Assembly: GCA_964016885.1 (NCBI GenBank)
Contig: OZ024751.1
Span: forward strand, 15,748,001-15,812,000
Source: Eledone cirrhosa
Taxonomy: Eukaryota
Direction: 5' to 3'
Length of the DNA stretch: 64,000 bases
Both the position numbers and the translations under genes were made by a program. The notes beneath the pieces are model-generated. The model did no database searches. It saw only the letters and a list, made by a program, of their open reading frames with translations, and was not told the DNA's origin. Shown here in pieces: positions 14,985 through 53,459 of the stretch; position 1 is the first letter of the stretch; every line of letters begins with the position of its first letter.

Positions 14985-15561
<577 letters not shown>

Positions 15562-27552: not shown

Positions 27553-27556
27553 CATG

Positions 27557-27612
27557 ATATAGCCGTCGAAACGGCTTGAGCTCTGCCGTCGGGATCTTGA
27601 ACAATTTCCTAT
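27557..27612 (+). mobile_element. F5 fragment (3' half of HHR)
   Basis: tagccgtcgaaacggcttgagctctgccgtcggga. Confidence 0.75.
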
Positions 27613-31828: not shown

Positions 31829-31837
31829 TATATATAT

Positions 31838-31991
31838 AACAAAGGAAATGTGGTAAGGAACCAGATGGACCATAACGCACCAGAGTACTCAATACTTAGG
31901 GAAGTAGAGTGAGAAATAGGCTATTTCTGGACTCAAGTCCAGAAATAGCCGTCGAAACGGCTTGAGCTCTGCCGTCGGGGTCATACTTTTT

Positions 31992-31994
<3 letters not shown>
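31838..31994. mobile_element. F5 fold-back element (internally deleted)
   Basis: F5 tail (-) joined to ggctatttctggact-ca-agtccagaaatagcc-gtcgaaacggc... Confidence 0.8.
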
Positions 31995-32023
<29 letters not shown>

Positions 32024-32804: not shown

Positions 32805-32811
32805 TAATATA

Positions 32812-33008
32812 TAGGAACCAATAAGACCCCGACGGCTGAGCTCAAGCCGTTTCGACGGCTAATTCTCAGAATTCTCAGAATTAGCCGTCAAAACGGCTTG
32901 AGCTCAGCCGTCGGGGTCTTACTGGTTCCTATTACCCACTCTACTACCCTAAGTATTGAGTACTTTGGTGCGTTATGGTCCACCTGGTTCCTTACCACAT
33001 TTCCTTCG

Positions 33009-33010
<2 letters not shown>
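32812..33010. mobile_element. F5 fold-back element
   Basis: Palindrome centred ~32872 within HHR stem II; the right arm carries the tail to ttccttcgtta. Confidence 0.85.
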
Positions 33011-33055
<45 letters not shown>

Positions 33056-38836: not shown

Positions 38837-39158
38837 TAGTTATGTAATAAACAACATAAGGCAATTATTCCATTTACCAGTGGTTTCTTAAAAGCAAAAG
38901 ATTTTGCTTTCAATCCTTAGAATGAAAAAATCCTGGTCTGTTTATTGAATTTGGATTTTAAAAAACCTTTTTAAAATCCAAATTCAATAAACAGACCAGG
39001 ATTTTTTCATTCTGAGGATTGAAAGCAAAATCTTTTGCTTTTAAGAAACCACTGGTAAATGGAATAATTGCCTTATGTTGTTTATTACATAACTATTAAG
39101 CTCTGTTACCTACATAGAGCACTCTTTTTTCCTGGACTTTTCCGACGGAATTACTTCA

Positions 39159-44474: not shown

Positions 44475-44697
44475 AGAAGATGGCGTAGGACAGAACAAAG
44501 GAGAGGCACAAAACAAAGAAAATAATCCCCAGTCATTGAAGAGGTCGCAGAATGAGTGACGAAAGAACTTTAACAAAATATGAACAACAGTCCGGTTGCA
44601 GAACCAACCAACCAGCCAACCGGAAATTTATAATAAATTGAAGTGAAAGCAACTGGTGCGTGTGTTTCTTATTGACAACATGACCTTCCCAAAGTAT

Positions 44698-44752
<55 letters not shown>

Positions 44753-44756
<4 letters not shown>

Positions 44757-45316
44757 AAAAAGTATGACCCCGACGGCAGAGCTCAAGCCGTTTCGACGGC
44801 TATTTCTGGACTAAATTAGAATTTTTAGCCTGGTGAATAAATAGCCGAACTTGTCAAGGGGGTACTTCCTTATATGGGAAGATTGTAGTTGTCAAGAGGA
44901 TTGATTAAAATTTGTTGTAAACACAAATAAGTCTATCATGGCATTTGGTGGGTGGTAGGGGTGGCTGAACTTGCCTGTAGAACAATAGGGGAGTGAGTGG
45001 AGCGGTCAAGCGTTGAAAGTGATATGTATACAGCAGAATCTAAGGATAGTGTATGAAGTGGAGGAGGGAGGTTATAGAATAGGTAAATCGAATGAGAGTA
45101 GGAGACAATAAAAGATAATAGAAAGAAAAATAAATATATAAAATTAGATAGTGAGAAATGAATAAAAACATTCTAATTTAGTCCAGAAATAGCCGTCGAA
45201 ACGGCTTGACCTCTTCCGTCGGGGTCATACTTTTCCCTATTTCCCACTCTACTACTCTAAGTATTGAGTACTCTAGTGCGTTATGGTCCATCTGGTTCCT
45301 TACCACATTTCCTATG

Positions 45317-45318
<2 letters not shown>
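44753..45318. mobile_element. Longest F5 element: UTR + full HHR on minus, inverted pLTR piece with tail on plus
   Basis: Arms 44753-44822 and 45170-45240, ~350 bp unique spacer, tail to 45318. Confidence 0.85.
44757..44869 (-). ncRNA. Type I HHR with U3:A8 core, long stem II and 5 bp stem III (F5)
   Basis: AAGUAC-CCCC-UUGACAA-GuuCGGCUAUUU(..GGCUAAA/UUUAGUC..)AAAUAGCCGuC-GAAACGGC(uugagcucu)GCCGUC|GGGGucaUACUU. Confidence 0.85.
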
Positions 45319-45391
<73 letters not shown>

Positions 45392-45444: not shown

Positions 45445-45600
45445 TTTCGTTTCTGAATTTGTTTAGCAAGATTCTTTATCAGAAAACGTGTGTTGAAACC
45501 GATATTGTTATGCTTGGGAGGGTCATGTTGCCAATAAGAAACACACGCATGGTGCGTGTGTTTCTTATTGGAAACATGACCCTCCCAAAGCATAACAATA
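45445..45600. mobile_element. Short fold-back terminus (family F13)
   Basis: Palindrome 45502-45600; the same terminus catgacc.tcccaaag.ataacaata occurs at 44680-44705, with related ones at ~18695 and ~52955. Confidence 0.65.
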
Positions 45601-53002: not shown

Positions 53003-53308
<306 letters not shown>

Positions 53309-53459
53309 ATATATATATATATAATATATATCTATATATATACCGTATATATATATATTTATATTTATATTTATATTTATATTTATATATATATGCATGC
53401 AAATATATTTATATATATATATGCATACAAATATATATAGATATATACAAATATATATA

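What the first reader, a model, noticed from the sequence alone, without database searches (positions are those of the whole stretch)
44753..45318. Family F5: large U3:A8 hammerhead seen whole only once; other copies break in or near the ribozyme
Seen: the minus strand gives CCCC-UUGACAA-long stem II-GAAACGGC-loop-GCCGUC-GGGG, with a stable 5 bp stem III, a GUC site and a partly palindromic loop (GAGCUC; UGAGCUCA in the 32.8 kb copy). Established: C3:G8 is a tertiary pair that tolerates the U3:A8 swap. Standard CUGANGA searches would miss it, and it differs from the minimal PLE type. Five more F5 loci (15085, 27557, 31838, 32812, 53105) keep only the 3' part.
Basis: partly seen in the sequence, partly recalled or inferred. 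Interest (0 to 1): 0.75.

Follow-up and report, generated by a model that had tools for sequence, protein, structure and literature searches.

The report
Penelope ribozyme split by RNA start
This is a hammerhead-type self-cutting RNA motif, with an already known base swap, at the end of a very abundant Penelope-like jumping gene; the new point is that most copies stop 40 bases before the predicted cut site, inside the ribozyme, which likely marks where the element's RNA starts, so that the front copy of the ribozyme would be incomplete and the message would escape being cut.

Summary
The type I hammerhead with a U3:A8 core is present on the minus strand (44861-44768, predicted cut after 44772). 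Stem II covaries between subfamilies. It lies in the pLTR of a Hydra-clade-like Penelope element (3,096-bp unit, RT plus C-terminal GIY-YIG, (TA)n target). It is whole only once in the window, but thousands of whole copies exist genome-wide. U3-A8 is already published for Schistosoma Penelope elements.

The breakage pattern is the interesting part. In an unselected 1.19 Mb sample, 47 of 78 arms end 30-45 nt before the cut site, peaking at -40 on the A of a conserved TYAGT inside loop II. Both arms of one insertion stop or cross together. Thirteen palindromes have both arms ending exactly at +1, as expected if cleaved RNA was copied.

Best reading (inferred, no RNA data): transcription starts inside the ribozyme, so only read-through or 3' copies can cleave, and internally primed RT runs off at -40. 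This scan noted fixed-start Penelope stubs in other genomes, ending just before the ribozyme rather than inside it.

The parts
44753..45168 (-). Arm A: 3' end of the Penelope-like element (pLTR), from -397 to +20, ending in (TA)n
   Evidence: 95.5% identical to the 3' end of the full unit L031
44768..44861 (-). Type I hammerhead: stem I CCCC/GGGG, core U3-U4-G5-A6-C7-A8-A9, 9-bp stem II, GAAA, 5-bp stem III
   Evidence: sequence, fold and covariation
44771..44772 (-). Predicted cleavage site, after C17 of GUC
   Evidence: hammerhead consensus; genomic copy ends cluster here
44810..44814 (-). Conserved TYAGT in loop II; its A (44812, -40) is the dominant 5' edge of copies; likely initiator and RNA start
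   Evidence: the reading as a transcription start is inferred
44837..44843 (-). TATA-like TATTTAT, 31 nt before the -40 edge (overlaps stem II; absent in the divergent subfamily)
   Evidence: sequence; likeness to TATA variants is recalled
44786..44801 (-). Alternative hairpin AGCCGU-CGAA-ACGGCU, predicted when the RNA begins at -40; it hides GAAA
   Evidence: z-score 0.07, so only a hint
45166..45320 (+). Arm B: inverted arm from -54 to +100, with the 3' half of the ribozyme (two substitutions in stem and loop III) and the 80-nt tail
44704..44752 (.). (TA)n target repeat, left
45321..45378 (.). (TA)n target repeat, right
15083..15191 (-). Single arm B stub, -8 to +100
27556..27612 (+). Single arm A stub, -34 to +20
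31836..31996 (.). Head-to-head stub: arm B from +16, arm A from -40
32811..33012 (.). Head-to-head stub: arms from -35 and -36 (UGAGCUCA subfamily)
53103..53310 (.). Head-to-head stub: both arms from -40, with 6 extra letters between them

Best explanation
The locus is a two-armed insertion of the ribozyme-bearing end of a Penelope-like retrotransposon, and most copies of the family stop at -40 inside the ribozyme, likely because the element's main RNA starts there. SHOWN: hammerhead anatomy; the parent element (RT, C-terminal GIY-YIG, tandem pLTRs 3,096 bp apart); two fixed 3' ends at +20 and about +100; a dominant 5' edge at -40; a rare edge at +1; both arms of an insertion sharing their class. 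INFERRED, step by step: (1) Pol II starts at TYA(+1)GT in loop II of the upstream pLTR, so the capped RNA carries only the 3' half of the ribozyme and keeps its cap. (2) An RT-endonuclease pair nicks (TA)n and primes internally at +20 and +100 (by analogy with Anolis Poseidon), then runs off at -40, giving roughly 200-bp palindromic stubs. (3) RNAs that contain the whole ribozyme (read-through or the 3' pLTR) are sometimes cut at C17, giving +1/+1 palindromes and free 3' ends that RT can jump onto. (4) When such RNAs stay uncut or are religated, they template the long copies, including this one.
For: Edge: exact counts fall from 13,169 (-30..0) to 4,710 (-40..0) to 854 (-47..0). 47 of 78 unselected arms start at -45..-30, 10 at -40 and 5 at -41. 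Arms of 60 nt and 140 nt stop at the same base, so the stop depends on position, not length. The divergent subfamily also starts at AGT(-40) although the rest of its loop differs. Junctions differ between loci and carry extra letters, T-runs or ORF pieces; the listed contig joints from six upstream places land on -40/-39. Against a random stall: 0 of 17 pairs with a long arm have a partner stopping at -45..-30, and 0 of 107 pairs with a stopping arm have a long partner. Only 5 of 22 copies that came through the ORF stop there, against 47 of 60 first-pass arms (Fisher p=1.2e-5). Cleavage footprint: 13 of 47 short palindromes have both arms ending exactly at +1 with foreign letters between. 4 of 24 tandem junctions end exactly at C17, and 2 more may. 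L275 joins a >=1,483-nt segment ending at C17, via 4 extra letters, to a -40 arm. Stem II 5' strand predicted from the 3' strand was found 357 times, control 0; 3 pairs are compensatory.
Against: No RNA 5' end, cap or cleavage has been observed. A cap-derived extra G is not evident: G precedes -40 in 6 of 24 arms, T in 14, C in 4. The TATA-like motif is missing in the divergent subfamily, and TYAG also fits a splice acceptor. 16 of 24 tandem junctions end at +4..+17, not at the cut site, and 13 of 16 jumped segments stop again near -40, so jumping to the cut 3' end is rare and cannot be the usual route to long copies. The +1 test has no control on the +2..+11 side, and 10 of the 47 are microhomology joins. 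One long arm has a partner at -29, just outside the stop class. 15 of 100 cores are C3.A8. Two other copies do not fold into the hammerhead at minimum energy. Cleavage was dispensable in vitro for Poseidon (PMC11167929).
Confidence: 0.6

Rival explanations
1. -40 is a stop imposed on RT by RNA structure or a bound protein on an RNA that continues upstream; the stubs are stall products.
For: The edge lies at the foot of the loop II hairpin, just after stem II is unwound. 13 of 16 jumped segments stop there again. An earlier scan note on another genome preferred a stop.
Against: The loop hairpin sequence differs between subfamilies while TYAGT and the edge stay. Crossing is all-or-none per insertion. 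17 of 22 copies coming from the ORF cross it. A stall shared by a whole RNP is not excluded.
Confidence: 0.17
2. The RNA does end at -40, but the end is made by processing (a splice acceptor YAG, or a nuclease), not by transcription start.
For: TAG/CAG at -41..-39 is conserved. PLE 5' UTR introns are known (PMC2377424). This fits the all-or-none pairing equally well.
Against: Arms usually keep the AG and have no common upstream exon. No listed contig joint skips to -38.
Confidence: 0.12
3. The ribozyme is a decayed passenger with no meaningful cleavage in vivo; the conserved structure serves protein binding or dimerisation.
For: C3.A8 and U3.G8 cores propagated (15 and 2 of 100; 6 U3.G8 of 100). 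Stems I and III show no compensatory change. Cleavage was dispensable for Poseidon in vitro.
Against: N7 varies freely while U4-G5-A6 stays in unselected long copies (two exceptions). There are 13 +1/+1 palindromes and exact C17 junctions.
Confidence: 0.08
4. The short palindromes are a self-propagating non-autonomous (MITE- or SINE-like) family with a fixed centre.
For: One junction recurs in many of the 30 loci, but that query contained the junction.
Against: In unselected samples junctions differ from locus to locus. Either arm can be the longer one (A in 9, B in 6), as for independent twin priming.
Confidence: 0.03

Closest known systems
Hydra clade of C-terminal EN+ Penelope-like elements (Craig et al. 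2021, PMC8557442; read passages, sections 6 and 11, supplement parts 1-2 of 59 and searches)
   Same: DKT, RW[K/R], CxCX5C linker, CxxC and CxH in the endonuclease, (TA)n target, tandem or inverted pLTRs with a tail. By eye the N-terminus resembles Hydra-1_Obim.
   Different: All Hydra-clade hammerheads listed in File S2 have CUGANGA, 3-4 bp stem III, 1-3 nt loop III and loop II of 10 nt or less. Here: UUGANAA, 5-bp stem III, 9-nt loop III, 33-nt loop II, an 80-nt tail and a 3.1-kb unit.
U3-A8 minimal hammerheads of Schistosoma Cercyon PLEs (Cervera and de la Pena 2014, PMC4209133; read parts 1-2 of 4)
   Same: Same core covariation, type I, in a PLE pLTR; also opposite-strand pairs.
   Different: Those lack a stable helix III; no start or copy edge inside the ribozyme is described in the parts read.
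Anolis Poseidon PAc mechanism (Frangieh et al. 2024, PMC11167929; read parts 1-2 of 4)
   Same: Two internal RT start sites bounding the tail, both DNA strands extended, AT-rich targets.
   Different: No RNA ends at the cleavage site were found there and uncut RNA was the main substrate; here genomic junctions mark the cut site and a fixed upstream edge.
D. virilis Penelope promoter (Schostak et al. 2008, PMC2377424; passages)
   Same: Start site and internal promoter lie in the pLTR.
   Different: There the start lies upstream of an intron whose end abuts helix I (PMC4209133), so the ribozyme is whole in the 5' leader.
LTR retroelement strong-stop DNA and U3-located processing signals (recalled, no call)
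   Same: Works like it: priming near the RNA 5' end, run-off, terminal redundancy, and a 3'-processing signal complete only in the downstream repeat.
   Different: Not a member: no tRNA primer or integrase; target-primed; the jump to the cut end appears rare.

Membership tests
Type I hammerhead ribozyme | Three helices around the core, stem I open | tested here: met
   91.9% of cells paired in 28 copies
Type I hammerhead ribozyme | Core C3-U4-G5-A6-N7-G8-A9, G12-A13-A14, NUH | tested here: met
   Met as the accepted U3:A8 variant (PMC3088659); GUC site
Type I hammerhead ribozyme | Compensatory covariation of stems | tested here: inconclusive
   3 pairs in stem II, essentially one subfamily split, with copies picked by 5'-strand patterns; none in stems I and III
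Type I hammerhead ribozyme | Self-cleavage | not testable with these tools
   Only indirect genomic footprints
Type I hammerhead ribozyme | Rfam hammerhead model match | tested here: not met
   No hit at E<=10; a model miss, not a defining biochemical feature
EN+ Penelope-like element | Single RT + GIY-YIG ORF between pLTRs | tested here: met
   L031 tandem pLTRs 3,096 bp apart; RT motifs and VIY..AYIG read by eye in broken frames. Pfam gave no hit on our pieces; homologue P0009 hits GIY-YIG
EN+ Penelope-like element | Inverted 5'-truncated copies and a one-sided tail | tested here: met
   the tail is 80 nt, longer than the usual 30-40
Hydra clade | DKT, RWK, CxCX5C, CxxC and CxH motifs | tested here: met
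   SDKTG, RWR (variant), CNCPDRSTC, CNLC, CKH
Hydra clade | (TA)n insertion preference | tested here: met
Hydra clade | Canonical CUGANGA hammerhead as found in the described families | tested here: not met
   U3:A8 in 82 of 100 and 88 of 100 listed cores; C3:G8 in 1 and 4. A reported trait rather than the basis of the clade
Hydra clade | Phylogenetic placement; absence of CCHH | not tested
   No tree built; published sequences were only viewed
Minimal PLE hammerhead (min-HHR) | Absent or 1-2 bp helix III, dimer needed | tested here: not met
   5-bp helix III, pair probabilities 0.71-0.90; a palindromic GAGCUC loop is kept
Non-LTR retrozyme | Head-to-tail arrays of units each with a whole hammerhead | tested here: not met
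   Copies are mostly head-to-head half-ribozyme stubs

The most novel reading that the evidence does not exclude
A Penelope-like element that places its promoter inside an enlarged loop II of its hammerhead, so the ribozyme is switched off at the mRNA 5' end and whole only downstream, like an LTR poly(A) signal in U3. About 200,000 genomic arms record the RNA start, and rarer junctions record cleavage at C17 in vivo and RT jumping onto the cut end.
Probability: 0.45. Interest if true: 0.72.

Novelty: new variant of a known kind. Interest (0 to 1): 0.52.

Why it matters
What hammerheads do in Penelope-like elements is open: cleavage in the 5' repeat should remove the cap from the mRNA, and the one reconstituted element did not need cleavage. 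This family gives base-precise fossils of three template classes (5' end at -40, 5' end at +1, continuous). It suggests a simple solution, a start site inside the ribozyme, which one 5' RACE and one cleavage assay could test. It also shows that CUGANGA and Rfam searches miss thousands of whole ribozymes in this genome. The U3:A8 swap alone is not new.

Tried and rejected
Rfam scans: only microsatellite-driven miRNA hits among the 150 of 319 rows shown for the window and no hammerhead in the region.

Pfam on five ORF pieces and a PDB search: nothing. A protein search found 366 relatives, nearly all unnamed.

A DNA search with the 3' half found nothing because very common words are skipped., 28 was biased by a junction in the query and was not used for counts.

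Sequencing runs: no RNA holder listed. The four runs laid are contigs of unknown kind and cannot show RNA ends; the second lay added nothing.

My first idea, that long copies usually arise by a jump to the cut 3' end, was dropped as the main route (1 of 16 jumped segments continues; no mixed long/stop pairs). Fold-back self-priming from the tail arm was rejected because arm A is often the longer one. A cap-derived G was not found. L274 was first read as ending at 0 and then reassigned to +4.

Rows dropped: 46 of 124 hits (start beyond +30, mostly TA-repeat chance hits, about 4 real tail pieces), 17 antisense artefacts, 3 mixed loci and 7 tandem duplicates of 51, classed by eye, with flanks read for 19 loci; L240 (wrong strand) removed.

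Literature searches found no paper describing a start site or fixed copy edge inside a PLE hammerhead; the library lacks most subscription papers. Figures and supplements of PMC4209133 and PMC11167929 were not seen and may bear on this. Also seen: 10.64898/2026.07.22.740005 part 1 of 5; passages of PMC12029980, PMC3846280, PMC6155905, PMC3088659; PMC2920678 part 1 of 2.

Full report
OBSERVATION. Positions are relative to C17 = 0 (window 44772, minus strand). The minimum-energy fold has all three stems, with z = -2.23 on this strand and -2.22 on the other. Rfam does not detect it. The element 44753-45320 is two head-to-head arms between (TA)n runs: arm A from -397 to +20 and arm B from -54 to +100. 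The five other loci lack the 5' half; six of their eight arms start between -34 and -40.

PARENT ELEMENT. The genome has 3.0 Gb; the kind of animal was not determined. The 146-nt query had 1,531 candidates and 13 perfect matches among the 40 scored. [quoted passage not shown] The motifs RWR, DKT, CNCPDRSTC, CNLC and CKH and the (TA)n target match the Hydra clade of Penelope-like elements (PMC8557442). No tree was built. Pfam missed our pieces; one of three homologues scanned hits GIY-YIG. The Hydra-clade hammerheads listed in that paper's File S2 all have CUGANGA and small loops, so this ribozyme is a different build.

IS THE RIBOZYME REAL? The core pattern occurs 2,301 times (control 0). Among the first 100: U3:A8 82 (N7 = C 35, A 31, U 13, G 3), C3.A8 15, U3.G8 2, C3:G8 1 (counted by hand). 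From a divergent subfamily's 3' strand I predicted its 5' strand and found 357 matches (control 0); of the first 100, 88 are U3:A8, 6 U3.G8, 4 C3:G8 and 2 look unrelated. In 28 copies 91.9% of cells pair and three stem II pairs change on both sides; stems I and III show no compensatory change. This rests on essentially two subfamilies chosen by pattern. U3-A8 is known in nature and active in vitro (PMC3088659, passages) and known in PLEs (PMC4209133). The C3.A8 copies suggest that selection on catalysis is loose.

THE -40 EDGE. Exact counts fall from 13,169 (-30..0) to 4,710 (-40..0) to 854 (-47..0). Of the first 30 matches, 27 start between -31 and -43. In 119 unselected 10-kb stretches, 78 arms remained after dropping 46 hits beyond +30: 47 start at -45..-30 (10 at -40, 5 at -41), 8 carry the whole ribozyme, 5 start at -100..-46, and 18 are shorter. 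This scales to roughly 200,000 arms and 20,000 whole ribozymes, a rough estimate. Contig depth from four runs of unknown kind also rises about tenfold at -40. The edge is the A of TTAGT or TCAGT, conserved while the rest of loop II diverges; this resembles the initiator TCA(+1)GT (recalled). Junctions differ between loci and include extra letters, T-runs and ORF fragments, as expected for run-off and end-to-end jumping (recalled from R2 RT).

END OR STALL? Among 141 head-to-head pairs from all loci held (a selected set), none of 17 with an arm beyond -100 has a partner stopping at -45..-30, though one stops at -29; none of 107 with a stopping arm has a long partner. Of 35 copies that span the tail-ORF junction (36 genome-wide with L031), 13 end at +14..+95, 5 at -34..-47 and 17 go further. 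That is 5 of 22 stopping, against 47 of 60 first-pass arms (p = 1.2e-5). So stopping is a property of the template class, not an independent chance per arm. Arm A is longer in 9 and arm B in 6 asymmetric long pairs, which fits twin priming as shown for Poseidon rather than fold-back.

FOOTPRINTS OF CLEAVAGE. A search for palindromes centred near the cut site gave 47 loci. In 13 both arms end exactly at +1 with foreign letters between; 3 are blunt and ambiguous; 10 are microhomology joins; 26 have at least one arm at +1. No other exact pair of ends without microhomology exceeds 3. The +2..+11 side was excluded by the anchors. Of 24 independent same-strand junctions onto a -40 arm, 4 end exactly at C17, 2 may, 2 are one base off and 16 end at +4..+17 (binomial p about 0.02 for 4). 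L275 joins at least 1,483 nt ending at C17, via four extra letters, to a -40..+103 arm. But 13 of 16 jumped segments read stop again near -40, so this route is rare.

MECHANISM. Shown: anatomy, parent element, fixed 3' ends at +20 and about +100, 5' edges at -40 (common) and +1 (rare), shared class of both arms. Inferred: the main RNA starts at -40, holds only half a ribozyme at its 5' end (predicted to fold a GAAA-hiding hairpin, weak), stays capped for the ORF starting at about +191, and yields stubs when RT primes internally and runs off. RNAs with a whole ribozyme are sometimes cut, or stay continuous and give long copies such as this one. Approximate odds: hammerhead in a Hydra-like PLE 0.95; RNA 5' end at -40 0.7; that end being a transcription start 0.6.

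COMPARISON AND VERDICT. The ribozyme class, the core swap, the element type and the inverted stubs are known. In D. virilis Penelope the start lies upstream of the ribozyme. My searches found no report of a start or fixed edge inside one. Earlier notes of this scan describe fixed-start stubs in other genomes ending just before the ribozyme (unchecked); I had noted the -40 idea before reading them. Verdict: new variant of a known kind, interest 0.52. The U3:A8 swap deserves little; the split-ribozyme architecture and the cleavage footprints make an open question testable.

Noticed in passing
window 44655-44703 and 45500-45600: A second, unrelated (TA)n-flanked family: a roughly 100-bp palindrome at 45500-45600 and a single arm at 44655-44703 beside the F5 insertion; possibly stubs of another Penelope-like element.
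   Followed up: no
window 38861-39070: A near-perfect palindrome with arms of about 100 bp around an A/T-rich centre (source of the MIR7533 chance hit); MITE-like or fold-back stub.
   Followed up: no
L225, L233, L234, L239: A subfamily with core CUGAGAA (C3.A8, G7), 13 of 100 listed cores; either a mismatch intermediate between C3:G8 and U3:A8 or a shifted register.
   Followed up: partly
L247, L215, L216: The 5' strand of stem II resembles one subfamily and the 3' strand another; possibly recombinants from template switching near -40.
   Followed up: partly
G000:C457:100162-100420; C22:18110524-18110601; C14:35628609-35628696: Short tandem arrays (periods 53, 42, 47 bp) of the segment that starts at -40.
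   Followed up: no
L117:9310-9586: A 137-nt piece of the element's ORF captured between two arms ending at -38 and -40.
   Followed up: partly
L371-L405: 13 of 35 copies coming from the ORF end within the tail (+14..+95), as if RT meets its own earlier product after a full round on the same or a circular RNA.
   Followed up: partly
L033:6957-7271: A different GIY-YIG fragment with a CNC-X5-C linker, from another Penelope-like family.
   Followed up: no
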